From the NCBI GenBank assembly GCA_015065085.1, contig SVQW01000002.1, forward strand, positions 132,197 through 196,196: 64,000 bases of DNA, in the 5' to 3' direction. The stretch's first letter is position 1; each line of letters begins with the position of its first letter. The notes beneath the pieces are model-generated. The model was not told the origin of the DNA. It searched no databases and was given only the letters and a program-made list of their open reading frames with translations. This document shows positions 9,612 through 24,205 of this stretch, piece by piece. The translations under genes were made by a program, and so were the position numbers. This stretch comes from Oscillospiraceae bacterium. Lineage in GTDB: Bacteria; Bacillota; Clostridia; Oscillospirales; SIG627.

Positions 9612-11462
9612 TTACTCTGCCGATATTTCAATCTGCATCATTTTGAAATTGCCCTCCGTTTTGCGGTAAATGCCGTTTTTATTGAGCTGTGCTCCGATTA
9701 CACGCTCACCGCCTGCGATATGGTAGGTTTTGTTTTCATCGACACACGGATACACGGTAACACCCGTCTGAACAAGCTTGTTTGAGAAGATCTGCACTTT
9801 TATGTTTTTAAAATCTCTGTCATTGAACTGGAGCACGGTAAAGGATTTTGTATCACACAAAATACGGCATTCAGCATTGCTCCAGAAAGCTCTCTGTTTC
9901 TTGAAATCCGCAACCATTCCGCACAGCATACTTTGCGTCTCGGGTGAAAAATGAGCCACATCACAGCTGAAGCCTATCGTCCCTGCAGAAAGAAAGCCTT
10001 TAAGCCAGCTTGGCGAAACATCACTAAGTCTTTCGCACACGGCATCTCCGGTAGCAAAAACATGCTCGGGATTCTCTTCATCATACCCATCCATACCAAC
10101 ACTTGACGCTCCAAGCACCGCCCAGCGTTCTATCACCTGGGGCGGAAGACGCAGCATTGATTCCTTGAATATTCTCATGCCGTGATAAGGGCTTTGGTTA
10201 TCCGAAGGCCAAAAGCTGTCAAAATCTCTGCAATTCGAAAGAGTCATTCTCAATCCACCCGAGGCACAATTTGTAATATAAAGCTCGGGGTATTCATTAC
10301 GGAAACGCTTTATGAGCTGACGGTAGCCCTCAAAATATTTTACAAAAGCCCTTCCCGTAGTATCAAATTCAAGGTCGGCATTGAAATCAAATTTGACATA
10401 TTCAACACCAAACCGGTCAATAACGCCGCTGACGGCATCAAATATAAAATCTCTTACCTCACTGCGTGAAAAATCCGCAAAATACGTACCCTTATATTTT
10501 ATAAAATAGTCACGGTGGCAATTCAGTGAATTGGTGTTCTCCATAGTACGCTCAGGTTCAAACCACAGTCCGAATTTCATTCCGTTGCGTCGCACTTCGT
10601 CCGCAATTTCCGCCATCCGTCCCTTGAATCCCGAATTGAGATTTTCCGTCCAATCGCCTATATTTGTCACCCAGCCCGCACTGTTTCCGAACCAACCCGC
10701 ATCAATCACAAAGTATTCCGCACCAAGTTTTGCGGCGGCAGGAATCTGCTTCATGGTGCTTTCAAAATCAATGCGGTCAAAGCGGTACAGCCATGTATTA
10801 TAAATAACAGGAAGAGCACGGCGAGGCATATTGATATTGCAGTAACGATGAAGTCTGTAACATTCAAAATCCCGTCTGTCTGTAAATTCATAGTATAGTA
10901 TTTCAGGCAAATCTATGCTTTCGCCGGCATTCACCGTGTACACCATGTTGTTCGACCACATTCCCAATTCCATAGCAACATAGCTGTTTTCACCGGGGGC
11001 GGCACATCGCTGTGCCGTCATGTTCCATGAGCAGTCGGCAATAAGATGGAACACCATGCCTCGGTTAGCCTGACAGCTCCACAGCGCCATAAACGGAGCG
11101 GCACCGTTTGCCGAACGCACAGAATCGGTATGCGCAGATATTTCGGTGTTAAGCATATGCCACTGACCCATACTTTCGTTCTGCCAGCTGTTAAACTGAG
11201 TATACACCTCATATTCACCGCCGTCAAAGGTTATGCGCGAGCGAAGTGCAGTAAATGTAAGAGGCGCGTCACTTGTATTTTCAAGGCGGTCTCTGCGGGA
11301 AAAAATACCATCGTTCTTTTGTCTTATATCTGCAGTGAGCGTATACTTACCGTAATCGGCAAATATTCTGCCGTCGGAAATTTCAAGCGTCGCCTCGGGG
11401 ATTTCCGAAAGTGAGCACACATTCCAAAGCTGAAAATGATTTTCGGTAAGAATTCTGTTCAT
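9612..11462 (-). CDS. GH36 alpha-galactosidase family protein
   Basis: YFVIDAGWFG, FGLWFEPE, YVKFDFN and NCASGG motifs, characteristic of GH36. No signal peptide. Confidence 0.85.
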   Translation of the reverse strand: MNRILTENHFQLWNVCSLSEIPEATLEISDGRIFADYGKYTLTADIRQKNDGIFSRRDRLENTSDAPLTFTALRSRITFDGGEYEVYTQFNSWQNESMGQWHMLNTEISAHTDSVRSANGAAPFMALWSCQANRGMVFHLIADCSWNMTAQRCAAPGENSYVAMELGMWSNNMVYTVNAGESIDLPEILYYEFTDRRDFECYRLHRYCNINMPRRALPVIYNTWLYRFDRIDFESTMKQIPAAAKLGAEYFVIDAGWFGNSAGWVTNIGDWTENLNSGFKGRMAEIADEVRRNGMKFGLWFEPERTMENTNSLNCHRDYFIKYKGTYFADFSRSEVRDFIFDAVSGVIDRFGVEYVKFDFNADLEFDTTGRAFVKYFEGYRQLIKRFRNEYPELYITNCASGGLRMTLSNCRDFDSFWPSDNQSPYHGMRIFKESMLRLPPQVIERWAVLGASSVGMDGYDEENPEHVFATGDAVCERLSDVSPSWLKGFLSAGTIGFSCDVAHFSPETQSMLCGMVADFKKQRAFWSNAECRILCDTKSFTVLQFNDRDFKNIKVQIFSNKLVQTGVTVYPCVDENKTYHIAGGERVIGAQLNKNGIYRKTEGNFKMMQIEISAE

Positions 11463-11551
11463 AACGCATCCATCCTTGTTTCTGTTTGTTTACAGGAACA
11501 TTATACAATATCAGACAGGAAATTTCAACATATTTTTTGTATTTTACTTAC

Positions 11552-11580
11552 TTGATTTTAAAAGCCTGCAGGTGTATAAT
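11552..11580 (+). promoter_or_regulatory. sigma-A-type promoter for the EamA transporter gene
   Basis: TTGATT (11552-11557), 17-nt spacer, TATAAT (11575-11580), about 30 nt upstream of the ATG at 11611. Confidence 0.5.
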
Positions 11581-11610
11581 GTATGAGTTGACTGCAAAAC
11601 GAGGTGAATT

Positions 11611-12462
11611 ATGGATAATATCTGGGTATTATTTGTTTTTTTATACAGCTTGCTTAAAGGCTCACGTGACGGAATGAAAAAAGCCGCCATCAAAAAAAGC
11701 GGAGCAAACGAAATTTTATTTTTCTATACACTCATAGGTCTGATACTGACAATTCCATTTTCGGCATCGGCATTTTCACTTAAGCCGTTTTACATATTCC
11801 TTATATTCATTAAAGCGGCAGTGGTGTGCACTGCATGGCTTTTCTCCTTTATAGCGCTGAAAAGCATGTCGGTCAGCCTTTTCGGAATAATGGATCTGTC
11901 GCGTATGGTATTCTCCACAATGCTGGGAGTTTTTGCACTGGGTGAAAGCTTCACCTGGCAGAAAGCCGTGGGGGTTATACTGGTAGTAACAGGACTTATG
12001 CTGGTAAATCTAAAAAAGGATACATCTTCAAAGGGTATGTCGTTTTCCATTCTCATGGCTGCACTTCTCAACTGCTTTTTCAATGCACTTTCGGGTACAA
12101 TGGACAAGGTACTGATGCAGTACATGGAATCCGCACAGCTTCAGTTCTGGTTTATGCTTTTCATGACGGTAATTTACGGTGCAGTGCTTGTGATAAAGAG
12201 AGAACGCATTTCGGTAAAGCACATAAAAACCAATTACTGGATACCGCTTATGAGCATTTCCCTTGTTGTTGGAGACAAGCTCCTCTTCGAAGCCAATGCT
12301 TCTCCCGCCAGCGAAGTAACACTTATGACGATAATAAAGCAATCTTCGGTGATTGTCACGGTACTTACGGGCTGGCTGGCATTTAAAGAAAAGCACATTC
12401 TGTACAAGCTTATGTGTACGGCAATCGTTCTTACAGGTATTTTCATTGCCGTGTTATTATAA
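11611..12462 (+). CDS. EamA/DMT-family transporter
   Basis: About 10 predicted TM segments in two halves. GAGGTGA RBS 4 nt upstream of the ATG. Confidence 0.85.
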   Translation: MDNIWVLFVFLYSLLKGSRDGMKKAAIKKSGANEILFFYTLIGLILTIPFSASAFSLKPFYIFLIFIKAAVVCTAWLFSFIALKSMSVSLFGIMDLSRMVFSTMLGVFALGESFTWQKAVGVILVVTGLMLVNLKKDTSSKGMSFSILMAALLNCFFNALSGTMDKVLMQYMESAQLQFWFMLFMTVIYGAVLVIKRERISVKHIKTNYWIPLMSISLVVGDKLLFEANASPASEVTLMTIIKQSSVIVTVLTGWLAFKEKHILYKLMCTAIVLTGIFIAVLL

Positions 12463-12500
12463 AAAGTGCTCCCGAAGCTTTGCTTCGGGAGCATATTTTT
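12461..12500. terminator. bidirectional intrinsic terminator between convergent genes
   Basis: Perfect 12-bp stem TGCTCCCGAAGC / GCTTCGGGAGCA (12467-12478 / 12482-12493), flanked by A5 and T-rich runs. Confidence 0.8.
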
Positions 12501-13558
12501 TACAGTAATCTTACCAGCTCGTCGCCTACCTGACTTGTTGTTGCTTTTCCACCCATATCGGGAGTGAGTACTTTGCCGTCCACCATAATCTGTTCAATGG
12601 AATCAATCAGCTTCCTGCCCCATTCTTCATGACCGAAGAAATCCAGCATCTGACTTGCAGACCATACCGAAGCAAGAGGATTTGCAATCTGTTTGCCCGC
12701 AATATCCGGTGCCGAGCCGTGGATAGGCTCAAACATAGAGGGATATTTTCTCTCCGGATTTATATTTGCTCCTGCCGCAAGTCCCATTCCGCCGGAAATT
12801 GCCGCACCAAGGTCGGTAATTATATCGCCGAACAAATTGGAGGTAACAACCACCTCAAATCGTGAAGGGTTCTTCACAAAAAACATGCTTGCCGCATCAA
12901 CCAGAAGCGAATCTGTCTTTACATCAGGATATTCCTTACCTACTTCGGCAAAAATACTGTCCCAGAACACCATAGAATAGTTAAGAGCGTTTCCTTTTGA
13001 AATGCTGGTAAGCTTTTTGCCGGCTGCACGTGCCGTTTCGTAGGCATAGCGTATAATTCTTTCTGTTCCTTTACGTGAAAAAACGCCCGTCTGCAACACA
13101 ACTTCATTGGGCTGACCCTTGAAAAGCCAGTTACCCTCGCCCGCATATTCGCCCTCGCTGTTTTCACGTATTACCAGCATATCAATATCACTGCACTTTA
13201 CATCTTTAAGCGGACAGGGTGCACCCTTCAACAGCTTGACCGGGCGCAGGTTTACATACTGATCGAACTCATGGCGTATTGTAAGCAAAAGATCCCAGAG
13301 AGAAATATGGTCGGGAACGCCGGGATAGCCCACCGCGCCGAGATAAACAGCATCAAATTGAGAAAGTATCTTTATTCCGTCCTTCGGCATCATTCTGCCG
13401 TTTTCAAGGTAATATTTACATCCCCACGGGAAATGTGTAAATTCAAAGGAAAAACCGCCGTCCAGCTCTGATGCACGGTTAAGCACCTTTATTCCCTCGC
13501 TGAGTACCTCGGGACCGATTCCGTCACCTGCGACAACTGCTATTTTATATTTTTTCAT
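12500..13558 (-). CDS. tartrate dehydrogenase / D-malate dehydrogenase (decarboxylating), isocitrate-isopropylmalate dehydrogenase superfamily
   Basis: Full-length similarity by eye to DmlA/TtuC-type enzymes: KIAVVAGDGIGPEV, YVNLRPV, IRENSEGEY, NLFGDIITDL, EPIHGSAPDIAGK. Confidence 0.9.
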   Translation of the reverse strand: MKKYKIAVVAGDGIGPEVLSEGIKVLNRASELDGGFSFEFTHFPWGCKYYLENGRMMPKDGIKILSQFDAVYLGAVGYPGVPDHISLWDLLLTIRHEFDQYVNLRPVKLLKGAPCPLKDVKCSDIDMLVIRENSEGEYAGEGNWLFKGQPNEVVLQTGVFSRKGTERIIRYAYETARAAGKKLTSISKGNALNYSMVFWDSIFAEVGKEYPDVKTDSLLVDAASMFFVKNPSRFEVVVTSNLFGDIITDLGAAISGGMGLAAGANINPERKYPSMFEPIHGSAPDIAGKQIANPLASVWSASQMLDFFGHEEWGRKLIDSIEQIMVDGKVLTPDMGGKATTSQVGDELVRLL

Positions 13559-13575: not shown

Positions 13576-13785
13576 TCAGTTCTGCTTGCGAACGAATTTA
13601 TACTCATCGTAAAATTTATAATACGGACAATCGTACTTTTTGCCGTATGCCATGCGCGCCATTTCGTCCTCGTCAAAGCTTACGGTACATTCGTTTTGTT
13701 CGGTATCAATATTGTAGTCGTAATATGCACAGGTTTCGCACTGTGCATTTTTGTTTTCGCCTGCCACATCCATTCCTCCATGCAT
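13576..13785 (-). CDS. 69-aa acidic/aromatic four-Cys miniprotein (uncharacterised)
   Basis: The ATG overlaps the upstream stop (TAATG). An alternative GTG at 13767 lies behind GGAGGA. Has CxxC plus two more Cys (CETC...C...C). The C-terminal KKYDCPYYKFYDEYKF repeats the tail of the upstream protein. Confidence 0.6.
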   Translation of the reverse strand: MHGGMDVAGENKNAQCETCAYYDYNIDTEQNECTVSFDEDEMARMAYGKKYDCPYYKFYDEYKFVRKQN

Positions 13786-16070
13786 TAAAAGTCATAAAAC
13801 GGATAATCGTATTTTTTGAAGTCGTAATAGGAATAGTCCTTGTTCTCTTCTTTTTCTTCCTTTTTATTCTTTTCCATCTTTACTTCACGCATTTTAAGGC
13901 TGATTTCATCAAGCATATCAAGCGCCTCGGTCTTTGTGCCGTCCGCCACACGGTCAATCGGCTCGCCCTTTTCGGTCAATTCAAGCTTCATTTCGCTTTC
14001 GTCACATTCCACCAGACATGGATGGAGCTTTAATGAAAGGCTTTTATGCGTTCCGAATTCTTTGTAGTAATGCACATACATATCCGTAAATCTGAAACCG
14101 CTGACGCGCATGAAAGCATTCCATCTGCGGTGCTCCAGCCAGGCAAGTCTGTGACGCATCCATGCATCCTCCGTCACAACAAGATCGCCCTTTGCAAAGC
14201 TTTCATACTTTTGGTAATCCTTTTTGAGCGCTTCAAGATAAGTATCATAGTCCTTTTCGTCAAAAACAGAGGCGGTTGCCATACCACAGGAAAACATCTT
14301 ATACGGGATATGCACCGCACGTGCCGAATTAGCCCAGAAGGTGTAATCATCCCTTGTGCGCTTCTTGTTACTCTTAGCTCGTTTTTCGGCATCCGCGGCA
14401 AAATTATACTTTTCATCCAGCGAATCCGCCTTTATGCTCAGTTCGGGACTCAATACATTTCCCGCACTGTACATCTCGCCCATCGAGCCGAAAGCATACA
14501 TATATATGTCGGGATAAAACATTTTGGAAGAGGTGAAGAGCCTTGCGTTGTTGAGCGCCTTGCACATTTCAGTATCATATATTGCGTATGCTATGACCGT
14601 TTTTTTGTTGTGCGCGGATTCAAGATGATATTTTCCGATTTCACGTCGCAACGCATCCGCAACAGTAAGATTAAGCTCGTCCGAACCCAATGCCACAACG
14701 AAATAGTCGGTGTCAAGAAGAGAAATGCCGTCCTTGTTCTTTTTCTCGAGCAGCTGAGGAATGTTTTCGAATCTCACATCTGCGCCAAAAAAGCTGAAGG
14801 AGCAATAGGGATTAGAAAATTCTCCTCTTTTATTCTTGACGAGTATTGGGTCATTTTCCGTTGCGGATTTTATTATATCGCAATTTATGCGGTTGAGTCT
14901 TCCCTCAAAATCCTCCTTGGTTTCATTGGCAACAACATTTATTCTGAGCTTACTGTCCAGTACCTGTCCGCACCAGTAAGTACCGGTAAGTACCTCGGTT
15001 CCGATAGAACCTGTACCGAAAACAGTTACGTTAAGGTCGGTATTAAGCCCCGGCTTTCTTCTGTGGATAAGCGGCTGATACAGCGGCACCTTCTGCAAAA
15101 GATTGCAGGCCAGCTTGCGGTAGCACTGAGCGGGAGTAACCGACGGCATTTCGCCTTCCTCAAGCCTTGAAGAAAGCATTTCAATAAAGCTCTTTTCTGC
15201 CAGAACATACGAATCATCCTGGCTAAACATGAATATTTCGGAATTTTTGAGATAACCCACATCCTTGCCGTCAGCCATTTTAGTCAGAGTGTGAAGGTTG
15301 TTTATCTCCTGCTCATCAATAAGAAAATACTTATTTTCAATATTCTTTTTCTTTTTTACATGTAAAATGTCATCCTGCAGGCAGATAGCGCCCATTGACT
15401 TTGCGGTTTTAATAAGCTCACTGCTCTTTTCGCTTTCGTCATCATGATATGCGTCGGTAAAAATAATCAGGGGCTTGGGGCTGTCTGCGTTATTCTCGGA
15501 CAGACTTGAAGCAAGTACTGCCGAGCGGGAATTAAGCTCGCTGAAATAGCAACGCATACGGCGTGAAAATTTCATAATGCACCATACTTTAAGCTTGGGG
15601 AATATATTAACCAGCACATCCAGTATTATTGCGCCCCCTGCAATGGGCGAGATAATATTGAGAACAGAGGCAAATATTCTGAAGCCTACACACATCCACT
15701 CACGTCCGAAAGCATAAAGAGAAGCCTGCTTCAAGCTCTGCATATATCCCTCGTAATCCGCATCCATACTGAAGGTCTGAAGCGATGCCACAACCGAAGA
15801 AAACAGTTCCTCCCACCAGGTAGATACCACAGCATCCCTTTCGGGCGATCGTACAACGTACAGACTTACGGCATACCTCATAAGAAATACCGCCAAAAGA
15901 AGTATTCCTGAAATTATAAATACGCTTTTTTCATTGAAGAAAGCAGTTCTGCACTCATTCTTTTTGCAGAAGTACCTGATTATCTTATATATGTACCAGC
16001 CAAGCATTGCCAGTACCATCAAAAACGCAGCCATCATAAGTGCGCCTATCAATTCATGGGGCCATACCAT
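13785..16070 (-). CDS. membrane-anchored protein with Rossmann-like (TrkA_N-like) domain and C-terminal RyR-like domain
   Basis: N-terminal hydrophobic helices (LIGALMMAAFLMVLAMLGWYIY; VFIISGILLLAVFLM; ISPIAGGAIILDVLVNIF). GxGxxG at NVTVFGTGSIGTE (about 15001-15038). C-terminal LAWLEHRRWNAFMRVSGFRF...KLHPCLVE (13998-14147). Start set at ATG 16070 (GAAAGGAAG RBS spanning the esterase stop). The track start at 16121 has no RBS. Confidence 0.8.
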   Translation of the reverse strand: MVWPHELIGALMMAAFLMVLAMLGWYIYKIIRYFCKKNECRTAFFNEKSVFIISGILLLAVFLMRYAVSLYVVRSPERDAVVSTWWEELFSSVVASLQTFSMDADYEGYMQSLKQASLYAFGREWMCVGFRIFASVLNIISPIAGGAIILDVLVNIFPKLKVWCIMKFSRRMRCYFSELNSRSAVLASSLSENNADSPKPLIIFTDAYHDDESEKSSELIKTAKSMGAICLQDDILHVKKKKNIENKYFLIDEQEINNLHTLTKMADGKDVGYLKNSEIFMFSQDDSYVLAEKSFIEMLSSRLEEGEMPSVTPAQCYRKLACNLLQKVPLYQPLIHRRKPGLNTDLNVTVFGTGSIGTEVLTGTYWCGQVLDSKLRINVVANETKEDFEGRLNRINCDIIKSATENDPILVKNKRGEFSNPYCSFSFFGADVRFENIPQLLEKKNKDGISLLDTDYFVVALGSDELNLTVADALRREIGKYHLESAHNKKTVIAYAIYDTEMCKALNNARLFTSSKMFYPDIYMYAFGSMGEMYSAGNVLSPELSIKADSLDEKYNFAADAEKRAKSNKKRTRDDYTFWANSARAVHIPYKMFSCGMATASVFDEKDYDTYLEALKKDYQKYESFAKGDLVVTEDAWMRHRLAWLEHRRWNAFMRVSGFRFTDMYVHYYKEFGTHKSLSLKLHPCLVECDESEMKLELTEKGEPIDRVADGTKTEALDMLDEISLKMREVKMEKNKKEEKEENKDYSYYDFKKYDYPFYDF

Positions 16071-16090
16071 AAAATCTCTACTTCCTTTCG

Positions 16091-16723
16091 TTACAGCTTC
16101 CTGTTTTTGCTCATAAGCCATTCTATAAGCTTATCATTATAGGCGTGCTCCCAGACATTGTGTCCGACACCTTCAACACGTGAATAGGTAACATCCCCTC
16201 CGCGTGCTTTAATACTTTGTACCATATGGTCGGAATTGACAACGCTTACAACACTGTCCTCCACACCGTGAAATACCCACACCGGCATATCCAGCACTCC
16301 TGCATTCCAGGGCATTCCGCCGCCGCATACAGGCGATATAGCGGCAAACATTCGGGGGCATGCCATTGCGGTGAACCAAGTACCGTAGCCTCCCATACTC
16401 AGACCGGTAAGATAAATTCTTTGCTTATCAACCTCAAATTCCTCAGAAATCTTCTGAATGAAGCTTATTATCGACTCCACCTTTGCTGCCCAGAAAGTAT
16501 CAGGAGGGCACTGAGGCATAACAAAAATACAATCATATTCGTTTTTTGCCATAAGCTTCGAAAAGCCGTGAACATCCACCTTTGATAGGTCATCACCGCC
16601 CTTGCCCCTTTCACCCGCACCGTGAAGCTGGACCACAAGGGGGAGATTGCTTTTTTCGTTTTCGGGTGAATACTTAACAAACGGGAAAGCCCATTGTGAG
16701 CCTCTGCATTCTGTTCTTTTCAT
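16091..16723 (-). CDS. alpha/beta-hydrolase, esterase/serine-hydrolase family (LpqC/carboxylesterase-like)
   Basis: Oxyanion region LHGAGERG, nucleophile elbow GLSMGG, acid FHGVEDSVV and His in GVGHNVW. No signal peptide. The ATG lies 4 nt after the upstream stop, with a GAAAGG RBS. Confidence 0.85.
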   Translation of the reverse strand: MKRTECRGSQWAFPFVKYSPENEKSNLPLVVQLHGAGERGKGGDDLSKVDVHGFSKLMAKNEYDCIFVMPQCPPDTFWAAKVESIISFIQKISEEFEVDKQRIYLTGLSMGGYGTWFTAMACPRMFAAISPVCGGGMPWNAGVLDMPVWVFHGVEDSVVSVVNSDHMVQSIKARGGDVTYSRVEGVGHNVWEHAYNDKLIEWLMSKNRKL

Positions 16724-16727
16724 AAAA

Positions 16728-19700
16728 TCAGCCTTTCAGTATACTTTCGATTTCGGCACCTGAAAGATGATTTTGGGTTATCAGTGCATCTACCAGTGCA
16801 TCCATCTTTTTCCTGTTCTTTTCTATTATTTCAACAGCAAGCTGAAGCTGTTCGGCAAGTATCTTATTTACCGATGAGCGGACCTCGCGTGACAGCTCAC
16901 CGCTTCTTGCAGACTCGCTTTCTATGGTGGCAAGCCCGAATTCTTCGTCCATGCCGTAGGTACAGATTATGTGCTGTGCCATATTGGTTGCAGAATTCAA
17001 ATCTCCGCTTGCTCCTGTGGAAATACCGTCCTTATTACCGTAATAAACAATTTCCGCTGCTCTTCCGCCCAGTGCAGTGCGTATACGGCTGACAAGCTCA
17101 TCCTTTGTGTAGCTTCCTTTATTTTCGGTATCACCATGTTGCATATATCCGCCGTGGTCGCCACGTGCAACCACCGTAAGATATGACGGTGTTTCACCGC
17201 TTTCGTAGCATATAAAGGCGTGTCCCGCTTCATGTCTTGCGGTGCGCTCCAGCTGAGACGGATCCCACTTTTTCTTTTCACCGCTTGTAAAGGTTTCAAA
17301 GGCTTCCTCAAATGCTTCGTCGGTAACCTTAATATCACCCTCGCGGATGGCAGTTCTTAAAGACATTTCAAAAACCGATTCCAGTGCGGCAAGGCTCATG
17401 CCGGTGGAACGCACGGCTATATTTTCAATTTTTTCTTCACTGATGGTGTATATTGGGTTTTCAGATGCTTTAAGCCTCATGTAACGGATTCGTTCCTGCT
17501 TATTCGGCAAATCGATGTATACCCGTCTGTCAAAACGGCGCATAAGCGCACCGTCAAGGCTCTTGGGACTTCCCGGCTCTACGTCGAAATTGGTGGCAGC
17601 CAATACGAACACAGGCTTTGTAACATCGTTCTTGAAGCCGTCCATTTCCGTAAGAAACGCTGTGAGAATTTCCTCTGCTCCGCTGTTGTTGTCACCGCCC
17701 TTACGTTCTTTGGCAATGGCATCTATTTCATCCACAAAAACTATGGCAGGCGCGTATTTTCTTGCCGTTCTGAACAGCTCATGCACCTTTTCGGGGCCTT
17801 CGCCTACATACTTTTTCAAAAACTGGTTTCCCTCGGCAGTAATAAAAGTAGCGTCCGATTCACTCGCCATTGCTTTTGCAAGCATGGTTTTACCCGTGCC
17901 GGGCGGGCCGTAAAGCAATACACCTCTGGGAGCTCTCACACCCGTACCTATGTACTTTTTGGGGTTTCTGAGATATTCGGCAAAGTATTTCAGCTCTTTC
18001 TTGGCATCCTCGGCACCGATAACTTTATCAAAGCTTATATTGGGCTTGGACACATTACTGAGTATATTCTCGGAATCCTCAGCATCAAGCGCGATCTCCA
18101 TTCTGAAATCAAAAAGTCTTATTTCAGCCGTCTTGCCTCCGTTCTTAAGGCACTGGGCGGTTTCAAACCTCACCAGTTTATTGGCCTTTGCAAGTGTCTC
18201 CATGCTGTTTTGCTGGTGAAGGGCGGCACAGATAATATCCATATCCTGCGAAAAGCTCTTTTTATTTCCCTCAAGAGTTATTACACCCCTGACGCCCTGG
18301 CGCATGAAGGAAACCTTTTCCTCGTCGTTGAACTGATGGGCGCGGGTTTCCAGCAGATACGTGGGAAGCTGATTATAATTCTCGCGTATAAAGTGCAAAA
18401 AGTCGCGTGCGGAGGAATCCACATCCTCTACATTGAGATACTCGTTAAGCGGATTTCTTATGCCGTAATTCACATCAAAAAGCGCCAATGCTATTTCGTT
18501 TTCCCGTATTACCTTTTTGGCACTGTCAAGGTCAGAAACATGTATAAAACTGCATCCGCATCTTGCGTCACTGCACAGCTGTGCAATCTCTTCCTGAGCG
18601 AAAACGATAACCTTTGGAGGCTCCATTCCTTCAAAGAGCGACAGCACCTCGTCATTGTCACTTGGCAAATCAAGAGTAATATTTATATTGTTTATCTTTT
18701 TTACAGAGCCTTTGAGTGAGTCTGATGCGGCAAGACGGAAAAGCTCGAAAAGCTCATCGTCAAAAAACGCCTCCGCACGGCTTCGTACCGTTCTGGCATC
18801 CGTAGCTCCGCCCTCTGCAAACAGCAGTGCAGTATACACCTTTTCGTCTATATCTACCTTTACACCTATCTCGTTCTCAAAGTCGCGGGCATGTCGCAAT
18901 ACCTCATTCTTGGCAATCATGCGCAGGCTGTGGGCTGAAATGTGATTGAACATAACCACGTTTCCCGAAGCAAAGCGGGAGCATATGGCACCCGGGAAAA
19001 ACGGAACACCCGTTTCGGGATTTTTGTCATTCTGAAGTGCTTTTAGAATAACCTTACGTGTAACGCATGAGAAATCTCCGTTTTCGGAGTTTTCATAAAG
19101 CTGTTTTCCCGCATTGGTGGTAAGTATTATTATGGTATCCGAGAAGGACACCTCGTTATCGGTATAGTTGTCGCGCAGTCTGCCTGCATCCAGCATCTGC
19201 AAGAACAGATGTATAACGCACATATGAGCCTTTTCAATTTCATCAAACAGCAGTACGCATCTGGGGTTCTTCTCAACAAAGCTTGTAACATTACCGGCCT
19301 TGCCGTTTTTATATACCTTGTCCGAACCGCAGAATTCAATATTTGCTTCCTTATCGGCATACTCACTCATATCAAAACGCATGAAAGGAAGCCCCAGCTC
19401 CATTGCGGCACTTTCCGCCAGAAAAGTTTTTCCCACTCCGGGAGGACCCGCAAAAAGAAATGTAGCGCGGGGTCTGGTGCGGGTTTTGTCGGTAAGTGCG
19501 AGAAGCTCGGAGCGAAAATACCCCGAGGCAAAAACGCTTATGGCATTATCCTGTCCGAAAATTTTACCGGACAGTGCCTTTTGTATATTCTTCACCTTGT
19601 TTACAAGGTATTCCATCTTTTCCTTGGGATTGTCAGGCAGCTTTTCCTGAGGCAGCTTCACCTCGGGCTGAGGCTTTTTTGCGGGCTTCTTTTCTTCCAA

Positions 19701-20246
19701 AGCGACATCTTCATCGCAATCCATTTTGAATTTTTTGGCAAAATTTTCTTTTATTTTTTTCTTTTCTTCATCTGAAATCGAAGAAAGCGGTTTTTCACCT
19801 TCATTGCCGTTTTTCTTGCCCGATTCCCATTCGGTGCCGTAGCTTTTACGTATACAATTTCTTATTCTTTCGTTGGGAACGGCAAATATGACCTCGAGAA
19901 GCAGCTCGGGGGTAAGGCAGGGATGCTTTTTTTCAACCGCTTTTTCGGTTGCTTCCTTCAATTTACGCTTCATATACAATTCATCCAGGAATCCCGTAGA
20001 TTTGGGGTCGGACACATACTCATTGAGTATGTCGGAAGCAACATCCATGTCTATTCCGTTTTTAATGAATATTTCCTTAAAGATTGTTATTATCGCCGTT
20101 TCTTTCGTTCCGGTACTTTCCTGCACCGTTTTTATTACCGCCAGAAGAAACCGCTCCACCGTGAGAATTCCCAAAGTATTGTTGCCTATAAACTTTGAGT
20201 AAGACAGCAACGAATCCAGCAAAGCACTGTTTTTTATTTCAGCCAT
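16728..20246 (-). CDS. 1172-aa soluble hybrid AAA+ protease: Clp_N-like + ClpB-D2-type AAA + REC-like + FtsH-type AAA + M41 metalloprotease
   Basis: N-terminal double Clp_N-like repeat (LTVERFLLAVIK / LTPELLLEVIF). AAA_2 module: IFGQDNAI, GPPGVGKT (~19423-19450), DMSEY, LLFDEIEKAH. Central CheY-like segment: KVIVFAQEE...ALALFDVNYG (~18270-18625). Classic AAA module: GPPGTGKT (~17886-17915), VFVDEIDA, ATNF, RRFDR. HEAGH zinc motif at 17220-17234. No TM segment. Confidence 0.9.
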   Translation of the reverse strand: MAEIKNSALLDSLLSYSKFIGNNTLGILTVERFLLAVIKTVQESTGTKETAIITIFKEIFIKNGIDMDVASDILNEYVSDPKSTGFLDELYMKRKLKEATEKAVEKKHPCLTPELLLEVIFAVPNERIRNCIRKSYGTEWESGKKNGNEGEKPLSSISDEEKKKIKENFAKKFKMDCDEDVALEEKKPAKKPQPEVKLPQEKLPDNPKEKMEYLVNKVKNIQKALSGKIFGQDNAISVFASGYFRSELLALTDKTRTRPRATFLFAGPPGVGKTFLAESAAMELGLPFMRFDMSEYADKEANIEFCGSDKVYKNGKAGNVTSFVEKNPRCVLLFDEIEKAHMCVIHLFLQMLDAGRLRDNYTDNEVSFSDTIIILTTNAGKQLYENSENGDFSCVTRKVILKALQNDKNPETGVPFFPGAICSRFASGNVVMFNHISAHSLRMIAKNEVLRHARDFENEIGVKVDIDEKVYTALLFAEGGATDARTVRSRAEAFFDDELFELFRLAASDSLKGSVKKINNINITLDLPSDNDEVLSLFEGMEPPKVIVFAQEEIAQLCSDARCGCSFIHVSDLDSAKKVIRENEIALALFDVNYGIRNPLNEYLNVEDVDSSARDFLHFIRENYNQLPTYLLETRAHQFNDEEKVSFMRQGVRGVITLEGNKKSFSQDMDIICAALHQQNSMETLAKANKLVRFETAQCLKNGGKTAEIRLFDFRMEIALDAEDSENILSNVSKPNISFDKVIGAEDAKKELKYFAEYLRNPKKYIGTGVRAPRGVLLYGPPGTGKTMLAKAMASESDATFITAEGNQFLKKYVGEGPEKVHELFRTARKYAPAIVFVDEIDAIAKERKGGDNNSGAEEILTAFLTEMDGFKNDVTKPVFVLAATNFDVEPGSPKSLDGALMRRFDRRVYIDLPNKQERIRYMRLKASENPIYTISEEKIENIAVRSTGMSLAALESVFEMSLRTAIREGDIKVTDEAFEEAFETFTSGEKKKWDPSQLERTARHEAGHAFICYESGETPSYLTVVARGDHGGYMQHGDTENKGSYTKDELVSRIRTALGGRAAEIVYYGNKDGISTGASGDLNSATNMAQHIICTYGMDEEFGLATIESESARSGELSREVRSSVNKILAEQLQLAVEIIEKNRKKMDALVDALITQNHLSGAEIESILKG

Positions 20247-20248
20247 TA

Positions 20249-20548
20249 TTAAATATCCCCTTTTGAATCATTTTTTTCTATTTTATATCCCAGTGCGATT
20301 ATAAGCTTCAGCGTCCCGATTGCCGTTATGCGGTCGTATTCCTTTTCTGATTCGGGAAGCTCATTATACGGCACAAGGCAGGGTGTGGTCTTTTTTATGT
20401 CGTCCCTTTTTTCGCCTAATGTCCAGCCCTCGGCAATACGCGCCTTTGCCCAGGTTTCATGAACATTTTCGGCTATTTTTTCCGTAAGCTCAATAAGCTC
20501 GCGGTCAAGACTTATATTATCTGTATTTATGGGTTTTGGTGTATACAT
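20249..20548 (-). CDS. stand-alone RyR (ryanodine-receptor-type) domain protein, 99 aa
   Basis: IAENVHETWAKARIAEGWTLGEKRDDIKKTTPCLVPYNELPESEKEYDRITAIGTLKLIIALGY matches the bacterial RyR-domain signature (HExWa...GWxxGexrd...kxxPxLvPyxeLxexeKexDR). GGAG RBS. The stop lies 2 nt before the next ATG. Confidence 0.85.
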   Translation of the reverse strand: MYTPKPINTDNISLDRELIELTEKIAENVHETWAKARIAEGWTLGEKRDDIKKTTPCLVPYNELPESEKEYDRITAIGTLKLIIALGYKIEKNDSKGDI

Positions 20549-24102: not shown

Positions 24103-24175
24103 ACTTATCTCTCCCAAAGTCATACTTTTACCGATACATTATACAACATATAAAGCGAAAAATCAACATTAAAAC

Positions 24176-24205
24176 ACAAAAAAACAGGCTGTTGCCTGTT
24201 TTTTG
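24176..24205. terminator. intrinsic terminator (bidirectional shape) after the PHP gene
   Basis: Stem AACAGGC / GCCTGTT (24183-24189 / 24194-24200), flanked by A-rich and T-rich runs. Confidence 0.7.

What the first reader, a model, noticed from the sequence alone, without database searches (positions are those of the whole stretch)
13576..20548. Translationally coupled five-gene module combining RyR domains, a Clp/FtsH-hybrid AAA+ protease, a serine hydrolase and a Cys-rich miniprotein: candidate undescribed system
Seen in the sequence: five minus-strand ORFs are packed almost without gaps. The stop/start junctions are 2 nt (20249/20246), 4 nt (16728/16723), about 20 nt with the SD over the stop (16091/16070, or a 31-nt overlap if the 16121 start is used), and a TAATG 1-nt overlap at 13785. 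The five products are listed below.
(1) A 99-aa stand-alone RyR-type domain.
(2) A 1172-aa TM-less protein with Clp_N-like, ClpB-D2-type AAA, REC-like, FtsH-type AAA and HEAGH M41 protease regions.
(3) A 210-aa alpha/beta hydrolase with a GLSMGG elbow.
(4) A ~761-aa protein with N-terminal TM helices, a GxGxxG Rossmann segment and a C-terminal RyR-like signature.
(5) A 69-aa acidic/aromatic 4-Cys protein.
Established knowledge: each domain family is well known individually, and bacterial RyR domains have no assigned function. I do not recognise this combination as any named defence, secretion or proteolysis system.
Inference: this is an ATP-driven unfoldase/protease coupled to RyR-type sensor or adaptor domains, one soluble and one membrane-tethered, plus a hydrolytic component. 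The layout (NTPase, sensor and hydrolase, tightly coupled, embedded between metabolic genes) resembles prokaryotic conflict/defence or dedicated regulated-proteolysis modules.
Basis: partly seen in the sequence, partly recalled or inferred. Interest (0 to 1): 0.9.

Follow-up and report, generated by a model that had tools for sequence, protein, structure and literature searches.

The report
RyR-linked AAA+ protease gene module
Three of the five packed genes (a small ryanodine-receptor-type nucleotide-binding protein, a soluble two-ring AAA+ metalloprotease, and a channel-like membrane protein with its own RyR-type tail) recur together in many gut Clostridia, often beside TIR and CARF immune genes, and look like an undescribed nucleotide-signal-controlled conflict module, whereas the esterase and the small Cys-rich protein are seen only at this locus.

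Summary
In detail: all five minus-strand ORFs, their junctions and the main domain calls are real. They are not a distinct unit by spacing, though. They sit in a longer co-directional array, the next gene starts 17 nt downstream, and no promoter or terminator of their own was found.

Across 34 non-redundant loci carrying a homologue of the 1172-aa protease:
- The esterase and DUF6472 genes never recur.
- 19 loci carry the membrane protein family ("G4"), a stand-alone RyR protein, or both.
- YbjN pairs, a CARF-PD-(D/E)xK nuclease, TerB-like proteins and TIR-NTPases also recur, in a nearly fixed order.

G4 genes sampled independently were each followed by a RyR gene. RyR genes sampled independently each lay next to the protease. 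Seven G4 proteins carry the RyR domain fused at their C-terminus.

G4 has no Pfam model. It comprises three TM helices, two Rossmann (RCK-like) domains and a divergent RyR-type C-terminus.

Two 2026 preprints show that phage RyR domains bind or cleave cADPR-type Thoeris signals. My best reading (confidence about 0.5) is an undescribed modular conflict system in which RyR-type sensors couple an adenine-nucleotide signal to an AAA+ M41 protease and a channel-like membrane protein. No function has been tested, and the window has no TIR gene.

The parts
20249..20548 (-). g1: stand-alone RyR (R12-type) repeat protein, 99 aa; predicted adenine-nucleotide/ADPR-type ligand binder. Core component.
   Evidence: Pfam RyR E 1.6e-35, full length. 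B. thetaiotaomicron RyR 3NRT E 1e-36 and human RyR2 repeat E 8e-18. H30, W33, R48 and D72 lie at ligand-contact positions, but Thr55 replaces the phosphate-contact His. Adjacent to g2 homologues in 10 of 34 non-redundant loci and in 2 of 2 RyR-side samples.
16728..20246 (-). g2: soluble two-ring AAA+ metalloprotease, 1172 aa. It is the anchor gene used to collect most of the related loci. Core component.
   Evidence: AAA_2, AAA and Peptidase_M41. FtsH_fam TIGR01241 matches residues 728-1166 at 353.9 bits, below the 600 cutoff. No TM segment. More than 120 clusters at 56-62% identity with the same length. Catalytic motifs are invariant.
19842..20246 (-). g2 N-terminal helical domain (residues 1-135), possibly Clp_N-like; candidate adaptor-docking domain.
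   Evidence: No Pfam hit. A profile search against the PDB gives ClpA N-domain E 0.12, Hsp104 N E 1.1 and ClpC2 E 2.1. Sub-threshold.
18822..19604 (-). g2 first AAA+ module (residues ~215-475), ClpA/ClpB-D2 type, predicted active.
   Evidence: AAA_2 E 4.8e-34. ClpA TIGR02639 matches 215-475 against model positions 445-690. PADLOC DolB E 6.9e-28. GPPGVGKT and VLLFDE are invariant.
18147..18629 (-). g2 middle domain (residues ~540-700), an alpha/beta region possibly of receiver (REC) type; candidate regulatory or sensor domain.
   Evidence: The top three PDB profile hits are all response-regulator receivers, E 0.11-0.33. Pfam OKR_DC_1_N E 0.11. D591 is invariant. Not significant; no structure was predicted.
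17277..18044 (-). g2 second AAA+ module (residues ~735-990), FtsH type.
   Evidence: AAA PF00004 E 2e-52. GPPGTGKT, IVFVDE and the YVG pore loop are present. PADLOC IetA E 1.4e-44, a generic hit.
16740..17255 (-). g2 M41 zinc metalloprotease domain (residues 998-1169).
   Evidence: Peptidase_M41 E 9.6e-34. HEAGH 1005-1009 and GASGD 1078-1082 are invariant in 14 homologues.
16091..16723 (-). g3: cytosolic alpha/beta-hydrolase (esterase), 210 aa. Found only at this locus; occupies a slot that holds other small hydrolases elsewhere.
   Evidence: BD-FAE, Peptidase_S9 and Esterase_PHB hits. GLSMG at residue 107. No homologue in any related locus. The corresponding slot holds a His-phosphatase (L089/L113), a NERD-like gene (L130) and a HAD-like gene (L092), with NUDIX/HD genes nearby in L149.
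13785..16070 (-). g4 ('G4' family, long type): membrane protein, 761 aa (778 aa if it starts at 16121). Core component.
   Evidence: No Pfam, NCBIfam or PADLOC hit. AF2 model pLDDT 88.4, pTM 0.83. 233 homologues. 2428 50%-identity clusters at E<=1e-3. Next to g2 homologues in 15 of 34 non-redundant loci.
15567..16070 (-). g4 N-terminal membrane region (residues 1-168): three hydrophobic helices plus a conserved amphipathic hairpin (LTWWEEIFNS..HALQTFSMDEDY).
   Evidence: AF2 helices 5-35, 47-74, 85-100, 106-121 and 124-168. Hydropathy. Conservation.
14451..15554 (-). g4 tandem Rossmann-like (RCK/TrkA_N-like) domains (residues 173-330 and 344-540). The second carries GTGSIG.
   Evidence: AF2 secondary structure. 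Foldseek whole-length matches to Slo1/Slo2.2 (TM plus tandem RCK): probability 1.0 and E 4e-4 to 4e-3, but TM-score only 0.30-0.33. TrkA_N hits in 2 of 60 homologues, E 0.03. G352, G354 and G357 are conserved.
13788..14348 (-). g4 C-terminal helical domain (residues 575-761): a divergent RyR-type repeat (AWLEHRRWNAF..GFR..K-x6-HPCLVECD) followed by a YDFKxYDYP tail.
   Evidence: hhalign against a RyR profile gives P 0.004, in register. Short and 690-aa G4 paralogues hit the RyR profile at E 6e-7 to 6e-4. Pfam RyR E 0.005 for the L001 paralogue. Against: 0 of 60 long-type homologues hit Pfam RyR. H647, W650, K676 and H683 are invariant or nearly so.
13576..13785 (-). g5: DUF6472 protein, 69 aa, 4 Cys, acidic and aromatic. 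Found only at this locus; role unknown.
   Evidence: PF20076 E 3.4e-19. No homologue in any related locus. Present in all 23 contigs of this species.

Best explanation
The window carries a rearranged copy of a recurrent, modular conflict (defence-type) gene set of gut and rumen Clostridia.

Core components:
(i) a soluble two-ring AAA+ unfoldase fused to an M41 zinc protease (g2);
(ii) RyR (R12)-type nucleotide-binding modules, present as a stand-alone ~95-aa protein (g1) and as the divergent C-terminal domain of the membrane protein;
(iii) the membrane protein (g4) itself, built like a ligand-gated channel: three TM helices, two RCK-like Rossmann domains and the RyR-type domain.

Inferred mechanism:
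- An adenine-nucleotide signal is read by the RyR-type pockets. It is most plausibly an NAD-derived, cADPR-like molecule made by TIR-NTPases, which are encoded next to the module in several genomes and elsewhere or not at all in this one.
- The RCK-like Rossmann domain may also read the signal.
- Ligand binding switches the membrane protein and/or licenses the protease, with the small RyR protein acting as a ligand-dependent adaptor or regulator at the protease's N-domain.
- The outcome is proteolysis and/or membrane permeabilisation that arrests the infected cell.

What is shown: gene linkage, domain content, intact catalytic motifs, and conservation of ligand-contact residues. What is inferred: the ligand, the direction of control and the defence phenotype.

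The esterase (g3) and DUF6472 (g5) are not conserved parts of the module. The esterase sits in a slot that holds other small hydrolases in other genomes.
For: Linkage seen from three sides:
- From g2: of 34 non-redundant g2 loci, 15 carry G4, 10 carry a stand-alone RyR and 19 carry either. Many of the rest are short contigs.
- From G4: 5 of 5 sampled G4 genes are directly followed by a RyR gene (L149-L152; also L001/L085/L115).
- From RyR: 2 of 2 sampled RyR genes lie next to g2.

Fusion: 7 G4 homologues carry a g1-type RyR domain fused at the C-terminus (E 1e-11 to 3e-45).

Conflict context:
- TIR-NACHT or TIR-STAND genes lie directly after RyR in L001 and L149, and TIR-TPR follows g2 in L153.
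- The recurrent 422-aa neighbour is a CARF-PD-(D/E)xK nuclease (PADLOC E 2.8e-30).
- A PD-T4-6-like TIR-kinase, NUDIX and HD genes and conjugation genes lie nearby.
- In one human-gut species the cassette upstream of g2 alternates between strains.

Ligand logic:
- Phage RyR-domain proteins bind or cleave 2'/3'cADPR and cADPR through H-x-x-W, K/H and D residues.
- g1 keeps H30, W33, R48 and D72. G4 keeps H647, W650, K676 and H683.

Protease and G4:
- g2's catalytic motifs are all invariant.
- The G4 model is confident, and its best whole-length structural matches are TM plus tandem-RCK channels.

No known system matches.
Against: - No TIR gene lies in the 64-kb window. Most related loci also lack an adjacent TIR.
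- No phenotype or binding data exist for any member.
- The module is fixed in this species: the arrangement is identical in all 23 contigs, with no presence/absence polymorphism. It is embedded in a metabolic gene array with no GC anomaly.
- The g1 subfamily has Thr where phage and animal RyR repeats have the phosphate-contact His. This holds in 99 of 102 scored homologues, so ligand binding may be altered or lost.
- The window's own g4 matches RyR only weakly (E 0.47; 0 of 60 long-type homologues hit Pfam RyR). The structural matches to Slo channels have low TM-scores (0.30-0.33), and no K+ selectivity-filter motif is present.
- G4-RyR pairs occur without g2 (L150, L152), and g2 occurs without either, so the parts may belong to separable systems that merely co-localise.
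- Sampling is biased. Loci were collected through g2, and only a handful were collected through G4 or RyR.
Confidence: 0.5

Rival explanations
1. Housekeeping regulated proteolysis or ion homeostasis. G4 would be a nucleotide (ATP/NAD(H))-regulated channel or transporter regulator. g2 would be a cytosolic quality-control or regulatory protease that controls it. The RyR protein would be a metabolic (ATP) sensor. None of this would involve genetic conflict.
For: - The module is fixed in the species and embedded among metabolic and transport genes, with no GC shift and no signals of its own.
- RCK/TrkA_N-like domains classically regulate K+ transport (established knowledge).
- The animal R12 domain binds ATP (quoted).
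- In L151 the G4-RyR pair lies next to a canonical FtsH.
- In L156-158 a PnuC-type NMN transporter lies nearby.
Against: - Flanking genes differ in nearly every genome, while the module's own partners recur.
- The partners are typical defence genes: TIR-NTPases, a CARF nuclease and a PD-T4-6-like kinase.
- Some copies lie in conjugative elements.
- Cassettes swap between strains in one species.
- Tandem paralogues occur (L092).
- Close RyR relatives are phage-borne.
Confidence: 0.2
2. All five genes form one obligate system. The esterase would be the hydrolytic effector and the Cys-rich DUF6472 protein a dedicated subunit.
For: - The junctions are tight or overlapping: 2 nt, 4 nt, about 20 nt, and a TAATG overlap.
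- All five genes are retained in all 23 contigs of this species.
- The slot between protease and G4 holds some small hydrolase in several other loci.
Against: - No esterase or DUF6472 homologue lies in any of the other 33 non-redundant g2 loci or in the sampled G4/RyR loci, including the closest G4 relative, L152.
- The downstream tartrate dehydrogenase is equally tightly spaced at 17 nt, so spacing alone does not define the unit.
Confidence: 0.1
3. A counter-defence or anti-sponge device. In one version the small RyR protein is a cADPR-type signal sponge or glycosidase, as in phages, carried by mobile elements to blunt Thoeris-like immunity. In the other it is a host 'bait' that pairs with phage RyR sponges and hands them to the AAA+ protease for destruction.
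For: - RyR proteins 59-66% identical to g1 lie in 13 IMG/VR viral contigs next to phage genes (tail, PurZ-like, integrase) and without g2 or G4.
- Phage RyR proteins are obligate dimers that sequester or cleave Thoeris signals.
- Some G4-RyR and g2 loci sit beside T4SS coupling proteins.
- The g1 subfamily is unusually conserved (71-79% identity). It differs from the viral-contig copies at the phosphate-contact His, which 10 of 13 viral copies keep and 99 of 102 scored g1 homologues lack.
Against: - g2 was not found in viral contigs.
- The window copy is chromosomal, fixed and not in a recognisable mobile element.
- A sponge needs no 1172-aa protease or membrane partner.
- Heterodimerisation between host and phage RyR proteins has not been tested.
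Confidence: 0.12

Closest known systems
Thoeris-type TIR signalling defence systems (types I-XI; ThsB TIR plus a signal-activated effector, including the type IV caspase-like protease effector)
   Same: - TIR-domain proteins are encoded next to the module in several genomes (L001, L149, L153 and the human-gut species).
- The module has domains of a family (RyR/R12) shown to bind the Thoeris signals 2'/3'cADPR and cADPR.
- It carries a protease and a TM protein as possible cell-arresting effectors. Both effector types have precedents in Thoeris.
   Different: - The window has no TIR gene.
- The adjacent TIRs are fused to STAND/NACHT/TPR NTPases. The systematic Thoeris survey excluded that class.
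- No described Thoeris effector has a RyR domain, an AAA+ ring or an M41 protease.
- The system has more than two genes and its composition varies.
Phage RyR-domain anti-Thoeris proteins: RyDEP (glycosidase) and RyR Tad (sponge)
   Same: - g1 belongs to the same Pfam family, PF02026, and is a single R12-type repeat of about 95 aa.
- The H-x-x-W motif, the basic residue and the Asp of the ligand pocket are conserved.
- Relatives at 59-66% identity occur in viral contigs.
   Different: - g1 is chromosomal and tightly linked to an AAA+ protease and a membrane protein.
- The phosphate-contact His (RyDEP H100, Tad H154) is Thr in g1 and in 99 of 102 scored homologues of its subfamily. 10 of 13 viral-contig copies keep His.
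- No binding or anti-defence activity has been tested.
FtsH (membrane-anchored AAA+ M41 protease)
   Same: The C-terminal 440 residues of g2 align with the FtsH AAA module and M41 protease (TIGR01241 E 1.9e-105). Walker A/B, the aromatic pore loop YVG, HEAGH and the GASGD Asp are all present.
   Different: - g2 has no TM helices or periplasmic domain.
- It scores 353.9 bits, below the 600-bit equivalog cutoff.
- It carries an extra ClpB-D2-type AAA+ ring, an N-domain and a roughly 200-aa middle domain upstream.
Hsp100/Clp unfoldases (ClpA/ClpB/ClpC) and the ClpB-like DolB of the Dodola defence system
   Same: - The first AAA+ module of g2 is of the ClpA/ClpB D2 type (AAA_2; ClpA model positions 445-690; DolB E 6.9e-28).
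- The N-terminal domain faintly resembles Clp_N, the adaptor-docking domain.
   Different: - g2 has no D1 ring, no M-domain and no ClpP-docking loop. The protease is fused in cis.
- DolA (DUF6414) is absent.
- The Clp_N similarity is not significant (E 0.12).
TM plus tandem-RCK ion channels (Slo1/Slo2.2, MthK-type) and bacterial TrkA_N-RyR proteins
   Same: - G4 has N-terminal TM helices followed by two Rossmann-like domains, one with GxGxxG.
- Its best whole-length Foldseek matches are Slo channels (probability 1.0).
- From my own knowledge, not tested here: TrkA_N+RyR is a recorded bacterial architecture for PF02026.
   Different: - TM-scores are only 0.30-0.33.
- No TVGYG-type filter is present, and the protein has three rather than two or six TM helices.
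- Pfam TrkA_N hits only 2 of 60 homologues, at E 0.03.
- Channel activity is untested.
FtsH-containing MoxR-vWA ternary conflict systems (Kaur, Burroughs, Iyer & Aravind 2020, PMC7159879)
   Same: Both are conflict-type neighbourhoods that feature a soluble protein with two AAA+ domains, the second of FtsH type.
   Different: - In those systems the N-terminal AAA is an inactive FtsH-type domain, and the core includes MoxR and vWA partners.
- Here the N-terminal AAA is an active ClpB-D2 type, an M41 protease is present, and no MoxR-vWA pair is part of the recurrent set.

Membership tests
RyR domain (Pfam PF02026) - g1 | Full-length match to the RyR repeat model above the gathering score | tested here: met
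   121.6 bits against a cutoff of 27.4, E 1.6e-35, model positions 1-91 of 91. 3NRT E 1e-36.
RyR domain (Pfam PF02026) - g4 C-terminus | Significant match of the C-terminal region to a RyR repeat profile | tested here: inconclusive
   Window g4 scores E 0.47 against the enriched RyR profile. 0 of 60 long-type homologues hit Pfam RyR at E<0.1. hhalign gives P 0.004, in register. Short and 690-aa paralogues of the same family score E 6e-7 to 6e-4, and the L001 paralogue scores Pfam E 0.005.
RyDEP / RyR Tad (phage anti-Thoeris RyR proteins) | Conserved ligand-contact residues (H-x-x-W, basic residue, phosphate-contact His, Asp) | tested here: inconclusive
   g1 has H30, W33, R48 and D72, but Thr55 in place of the His. 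This assignment rests on spacing and on the alignment to canonical repeats.
RyDEP / RyR Tad (phage anti-Thoeris RyR proteins) | Encoded by a phage and able to bind or cleave cADPR isomers | not testable with these tools
   The window copy is chromosomal. Relatives at 59-66% identity lie in viral contigs.
Thoeris | A signal-producing TIR protein in the same operon | tested here: not met
   tblastn with five TIR proteins from related loci finds none in the 64-kb window. TIR-NTPases are adjacent in L001, L149, L153 and the human-gut species.
Thoeris | An effector activated by an NAD-derived signal, and phage protection | not testable with these tools
   Only inferred from the RyR-domain precedent.
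FtsH (TIGR01241 equivalog) | Score above the curated cutoff, plus the N-terminal TM anchor and periplasmic domain | tested here: not met
   353.9 bits against a cutoff of 600. No TM segment: the highest 19-residue hydropathy is 1.29.
FtsH (TIGR01241 equivalog) | Classical AAA module with Walker A/B and pore loop, plus an HExxH M41 protease | tested here: met
   GPPGTGKT at 780, IVFVDE at 835, YVG at 813, HEAGH at 1005 and GASGD at 1078. All are invariant in 14 homologues.
ClpA/ClpB/ClpC (Hsp100) | Clp_N N-domain plus D1 and D2 AAA+ rings | tested here: not met
   Only a D2-type module is present (AAA_2; ClpA model positions 445-690). Clp_N is not detected by Pfam, and the PDB profile match is E 0.12.
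IetAS / Dodola defence systems | Cognate partner gene (IetS subtilase; DolA DUF6414) next to the ATPase | tested here: not met
   PADLOC hits IetA and DolB on g2 only, and nothing on g1, g3, g4 or g5. No such partner was seen in the related loci.
RCK-regulated K+ channels (Slo/MthK) | Pore with a K+ selectivity filter, plus RCK domains | tested here: inconclusive
   Foldseek matches to Slo1/Slo2.2: probability 1.0, TM-score 0.30-0.33. No GYG motif appears in the sequence. TrkA_N hits 2 of 60 homologues.
MoxR-vWA-FtsH ternary systems (Kaur 2020) | MoxR and vWA partners; an inactive N-terminal FtsH-type AAA | tested here: not met
   No MoxR-vWA pair is among the recurrent neighbours. The N-terminal AAA is of ClpB-D2 type with intact Walker A/B.

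The most novel reading that the evidence does not exclude
Host-encoded RyR (R12) domains are the receptors of a previously unrecognised branch of NAD-derived immune signalling.

- A RyR-type pocket on a TM plus tandem-RCK, channel-like protein, completed in trans or in cis by a second RyR repeat, would gate the membrane protein in response to a cADPR-like molecule. This would be a bacterial counterpart of nucleotide-modulated ryanodine-receptor channels.
- A dedicated two-ring AAA+ M41 protease would execute or reset the response.
- In a variant reading, the protease would destroy phage RyR 'sponge' proteins captured by the host RyR bait.
Probability: 0.2. Interest if true: 0.9.

Novelty: new variant of a known kind. 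Interest (0 to 1): 0.7.

Why it matters
RyR (R12) domains were shown to be cADPR-type signal binders only in 2026, and only in phage anti-defence proteins. Their role in bacteria, and in the animal ryanodine receptor itself, remains open.

This locus and its relatives place host RyR-type domains in a recurrent gene set. That set contains a unique soluble ClpB-D2 + FtsH + M41 protease and an uncharacterised family of channel-like membrane proteins (at least 816 clusters at 50% identity with E<=1e-30, and no Pfam model). TIR-NTPases and CARF nucleases often lie beside it.

If the set is functional in immunity, it would add:
- a new receptor class and a new effector class (an ATP-dependent metalloprotease) to nucleotide-signalling defence;
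- a case from the TIR-STAND class that the systematic Thoeris survey excluded;
- a tractable bacterial model for how an R12 domain couples a nucleotide to a membrane protein.

Abundant human-gut and rumen Clostridia carry it, so it may also shape phage-host dynamics in those microbiomes.

Tried and rejected
It returned mostly canonical FtsH; only L005-L008 were family members. The single-protein metagenome scan worked better.
2. Pfam at relaxed thresholds on sub-regions of g2 and g4 gave nothing significant.
3. I predicted the C-terminal fragment of a natural G4-RyR fusion (P0189) to test whether the two RyR-type repeats pack like an animal R12 tandem. The model was poor (pLDDT 66, pTM 0.39, G4 part below 50), so I did not use it.
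4. A Foldseek search of the g4 model against BFVD, to fish for phage RyR folds, returned nothing below E 0.04.
6. I looked for strains lacking the module between the same flanks. All 23 contigs with the identical tartrate dehydrogenase carry it.
7. A tblastn search for a TIR gene in the window found none.
8. Known-system checks were all negative. PADLOC gave only generic hits. The Kaur 2020 FtsH ternary system has a different architecture. The Thoeris survey lists no RyR, AAA or M41 effector. Literature searches for M41 or FtsH-like defence found nothing relevant.
9. I checked whether the 2024-aa protein beside RyR in viral contigs relates to large proteins beside distant g2 genes. It does not; it is a surface adhesin-like protein.

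Full report
**1. Observation**

The five minus-strand ORFs are present exactly as described.

| Gene | Coordinates | Length |
|---|---|---|
| g1 | 20249-20548 | 99 aa |
| g2 | 16728-20246 | 1172 aa |
| g3 | 16091-16723 | 210 aa |
| g4 | 13785-16121 | 778 aa (761 aa from ATG 16070) |
| g5 | 13576-13785 | 69 aa |

Reading the junctions confirms the stated spacings:
- a 2-nt gap between g1 and g2;
- a 4-nt gap between g2 and g3;
- for g3/g4, either a 31-nt overlap or a 20-nt gap with a Shine-Dalgarno sequence (AAGGAAG);
- a TAATG overlap between g4 and g5.

Gene callers disagree on the g4 start: ENA/NCBI use 761 aa and JGI uses 778 aa.

Profile searches confirm most of the domain calls:
- g1 is a RyR domain (PF02026, E 1.6e-35, full length).
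- g2 has AAA_2, AAA and Peptidase_M41.
- g3 is an alpha/beta-hydrolase with GLSMG.
- g5 is DUF6472 (E 3.4e-19).
- g2 has no hydrophobic segment. Both Walker A/B sets, the YVG pore loop, HEAGH and the GASGD aspartate are present and invariant in 14 homologues.

Two calls are plausible but sub-threshold. The 'Clp_N-like' domain rests on a ClpA N-domain match at E 0.12. The 'REC-like' domain rests on the top three PDB profile hits all being receiver domains, at E 0.11-0.33.

g4 has no hit in Pfam, NCBIfam or PADLOC.

**2. The five genes are not a self-evident unit**

- The next gene downstream, tartrate dehydrogenase, starts 17 nt after the g5 stop.
- The AEC-family transporter upstream ends 69 nt before g1.
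- The simple scans find strong minus-strand terminators only at 24204-24179 and 12493-12467. These bracket a ten-gene co-directional array: a 357-aa gene, LuxS, two AEC transporters, the five genes, and tartrate dehydrogenase.
- GC content is unremarkable.
- All 23 contigs that encode the identical tartrate dehydrogenase have the same arrangement, so I saw no presence/absence polymorphism.

**3. Synteny from the protease side**

The g2 architecture is widespread. More than 120 90%-identity clusters share 56-62% identity and a length of 1125-1250 aa. Where named, they come from Ruminococcaceae/Oscillospiraceae, Clostridia or Eubacterium MAGs.

I collected related loci from four sources:
- The look-up of encoding contigs;
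- a metagenome scan that returned 51 loci;
- four distant relatives from the genome scan;
- loci reached through G4 and RyR.

I then searched all ORFs in these loci by jackhmmer with the five window proteins and with recurrent neighbours. After collapsing g2 proteins at 90% identity there are 34 non-redundant protease loci.

| Neighbour | Loci (of 34) |
|---|---|
| G4 family | 15 |
| Stand-alone RyR | 10 |
| G4 or RyR | 19 |
| YbjN-like genes (usually a tandem pair) | 11 |
| CARF-PD-(D/E)xK nuclease | 7 |
| TerB-like protein | 4 |
| TIR-NTPase | at least 5 (3 found by the search seed; L153 and L093 added by inspection) |
| Esterase | 1 (the window) |
| DUF6472 | 1 (the window) |

Several loci with no partner are contigs of 2-6 kb.

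Neighbour identities come from these hits: YbjN Pfam E 2.3e-6; Card1_endonuc E 1.3e-5; PADLOC CARF4--CARF_PDDEXK E 2.8e-30; VC1899/1XMX E 0.011.

Gene order is nearly constant: [YbjN YbjN][CARF nuclease][short G4] g2 [long G4][RyR][TIR-NTPase][TerB-like]. The window (RyR-g2-esterase-G4) and L159-161 (G4-RyR-g2) are rearranged variants.

**4. Synteny from the other two sides**

Each long-type G4 sampled was followed directly by a RyR gene; L153, reached through a g2 homologue, carries a short G4.

| Locus | Arrangement |
|---|---|
| L149 | short G4-g2-long G4-RyR-TIR/NACHT-NUDIX-HD-...-Tubulin_2/TIR |
| L150 | G4-RyR beside a T4SS coupling protein, no g2 |
| L151 | canonical FtsH-DUF308-G4-RyR |
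| L152 | CARF nuclease-405 aa-TerB-G4-RyR, no g2 |
| L153 | short G4-g2-TIR/TPR, near ClpP and TraG |

I chose two RyR homologues the same way, and both lay next to g2:
- YbjN-YbjN-g2-RyR (L156-158);
- G4-RyR-g2-CARF nuclease (L159-161).

Seven G4 homologues carry a g1-type RyR domain fused to their extreme C-terminus (E 1e-11 to 3e-45). This is a Rosetta-stone link between g4 and g1.

I conclude that the conserved core is g2 plus RyR-type modules (stand-alone or on G4). G4-RyR is the tightest pair. The esterase and DUF6472 are found only at this locus.

The position between G4 and g2 holds other small hydrolases elsewhere:
- a histidine phosphatase in L089/L113;
- a NERD-like gene in L130;
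- a HAD-like gene between two tandem g2 paralogues in L092;
- NUDIX and HD genes nearby in L149.

A role for the esterase as an interchangeable accessory, for example in signal turnover, therefore remains possible. It is unsupported.

**5. What G4 is**

The family is sizeable and unannotated:
- 233 hits in the word-indexed search;
- 2428 50%-identity clusters at E<=1e-3 and 816 at E<=1e-30 among 1.84 billion representatives;
- no Pfam model.

The AlphaFold2 model is confident (pLDDT 88.4, pTM 0.83). It shows:
- three hydrophobic helices plus a conserved amphipathic hairpin (residues 1-168);
- two alpha/beta Rossmann-like domains (173-330 and 344-540), the second with a GTGxIG motif;
- a helical C-terminal domain (542-761).

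The best whole-length Foldseek matches in the PDB are Slo1/Slo2.2 channels, which are TM plus tandem RCK. Probability is 1.0 and E is 4e-4 to 4e-3, but TM-scores are only 0.30-0.33. This is an architectural resemblance. It is not evidence of a K+ pore, and no GYG filter is present.

The C-terminal domain carries invariant or near-invariant residues W644, E646, H647, R648, R649, W650, R655, G658, K676, L682, H683, P684-V687, E688 and D718. The motif AWLEHRRWNAF..GFR..K-x6-HPCLVECD aligns in register with the RyR motif IAENVHETWA..GWTYG..K-x6-(H/T)PCLVPY (hhalign P 0.004).

For the window's own long-type protein this similarity is not significant on its own:
- E 0.47 against an enriched RyR profile;
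- 0 of 60 homologues hit Pfam RyR.

The short (~596 aa) and 690-aa G4 paralogues are members of the same jackhmmer family. They match the RyR profile at E 6e-7 to 6e-4 over model positions 17-79. One hits Pfam RyR at E 0.005.

**6. What RyR domains do**

Two 2026 preprints are directly relevant.
- RyDEP from a mycobacteriophage is an R12-fold homodimer that hydrolyses 2'cADPR and 3'cADPR. Other phage homologues sequester these signals. Contacts come from H75, W78, H100 and D117 (PMC13232231).
- 'RyR Tad' from a Pectobacterium phage sponges 3'cADPR, 2'cADPR and cADPR through H129/W132, K147/H154 and K170/D171 (10.64898/2026.06.04.730250).

g1 is a canonical repeat, with 3NRT at E 1e-36 and human RyR2 residues 862-954 at E 8e-18. 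It keeps H30, W33, R48 and D72. However, it has Thr where the phosphate-contact His sits. This substitution occurs in 99 of 102 scored homologues of its subfamily.

RyR proteins 59-66% identical to g1 occur in 13 IMG/VR contigs. These contigs carry bona fide phage genes and lack g2 and G4. Ten of those 13 keep the His. G4 also keeps it, as H683.

The stand-alone subfamily is very large and unusually conserved: 4270 clusters, with the top 120 at 71-79% identity. For comparison, g2 homologues are about 60% identical and G4 homologues about 40%.

**7. Best explanation and rivals**

The recurrent partners share a theme of nucleotide second-messenger immunity:
- TIR-NTPases as signal makers. One has an intact C-x-x-E-L catalytic motif, seen in the sequence.
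- CARF nucleases and RyR domains as signal readers.
- NUDIX and HD genes as possible signal degraders.

The surroundings also fit conflict genes: PD-T4-6-like kinases, conjugation genes, strain-level cassette swapping and tandem paralogues.

I therefore favour, at about 0.5, a modular conflict system. In it, RyR-type pockets couple an adenine-nucleotide signal to the AAA+ M41 protease and to the channel-like membrane protein.

The steps from ligand to output are inference. The following are my hypotheses only:
- the small RyR protein as an adaptor on the g2 N-domain;
- G4 as the membrane effector or anchor;
- pairing of the G4 repeat with g1 into an R12-like pseudo-dimer.

Against this reading:
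- the window has no TIR gene;
- the module is fixed in this species;
- the His-to-Thr change may alter or abolish ligand binding;
- the parts are separable (L150 and L152 lack g2, and many g2 loci lack RyR/G4);
- no functional data exist.

Rivals:
- housekeeping nucleotide-regulated proteolysis or ion homeostasis (0.2);
- the original five-gene system (0.1);
- a counter-defence or anti-sponge role for the RyR-protease pair (0.12).

**8. Comparison with known systems and novelty**

- PADLOC finds no system-specific match.
- The FtsH-containing MoxR-vWA ternary systems of Kaur et al. 2020 differ in having an inactive N-terminal FtsH-type AAA and MoxR/vWA partners.
- The systematic Thoeris survey lists 29 putative effector types without RyR, AAA+ or M41. 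It explicitly excluded Avs/STAND-linked TIRs.
- Literature searches for M41 or FtsH-like defence systems returned nothing relevant.

g2 fails the FtsH equivalog test because it has no TM anchor and scores below the cutoff. It fails the Hsp100 definition because it has no D1 ring.

I rate the finding a new variant of a known kind (nucleotide-signal-linked conflict systems), with a new receptor/effector combination. Interest is 0.7. It remains high because host-side RyR biology is an open question that these loci make directly testable.

Noticed in passing
L138, L139, L140, L144, L147 (viral contigs), around the RyR gene at ~8001-8280 (6777-7043 in L139): A conserved phage cassette. A RyR gene that keeps the canonical His is followed by a ~205-aa gene, a ~291-aa gene (phrog_2971) and a ~397-aa PurZ-like gene (phrog_1211, 2-aminoadenine pathway), with a radical-SAM gene upstream.
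   Followed up: partly
L095-L129 (human-gut metagenome loci), upstream of g2 at 10001-13450: In one gut species the protease and a DUF5640 lipoprotein are constant. The upstream cassette alternates between a TIR-STAND-TPR protein (~1040-1270 aa) and a 1505-aa transglutaminase-like protein plus a 761-aa TM protein. This is strain-level cassette swapping at a single locus.
   Followed up: partly
L092: 107-3574 and 4324-7878: Two tandem paralogues of the protease, separated by a 158-aa HAD-like gene and followed by a G4 fragment.
   Followed up: no
L151: 5463-10725: A G4-RyR pair lies directly downstream of a canonical membrane FtsH (with FtsH_ext) and a DUF308 gene. This may be coincidence, or a case where ordinary FtsH replaces the soluble protease.
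   Followed up: no
window 13788-13830 (g4 tail) and 13576-13785 (g5); alignment A5: The conserved G4 C-terminal tail YDFKxYDYP(F)xD aligns with the N-terminal Y-x-P-x-P-(I/V)-(D/N) strand of stand-alone RyR proteins in the natural fusions. The DUF6472 protein has similar aromatic/acidic strings (CAYYDYNID, CPYYKFYDEYKF). Unexplained.
   Followed up: no
window 20385-20396 (g1 residues 52-55, KKTT); P0241-P0360: The protease-associated RyR subfamily has Thr (or Gln/Glu-Thr) where animal, Bacteroides and most phage RyR repeats have His in KKHPCLVPY. 99 of 102 scored homologues lack His, whereas 10 of 13 viral copies keep it.
   Followed up: yes
L156-L158: 10066-10782: A PnuC-type NMN transporter gene lies two genes downstream of the YbjN-YbjN-protease-RyR set. 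It may be incidental, but it relates to NAD metabolism.
   Followed up: no
window 12466-12494 and 24138-24204: A strong bidirectional terminator hairpin (13 bp stem, 8 GC) lies between tartrate dehydrogenase and the convergent EamA gene. A terminator followed by a 10/12 sigma-70-like promoter lies upstream of the 357-aa gene. Together they appear to bracket a ~12-kb co-directional array that includes LuxS and two AEC-family transporters.
   Followed up: partly
L136: 1809-7883; L137: 2265-7916: In two 'viral' contigs the RyR gene (of the type lacking His) follows a ~1900-2000-aa surface adhesin-like protein and lies near a serine integrase. These may be integrative elements rather than phages.
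   Followed up: partly
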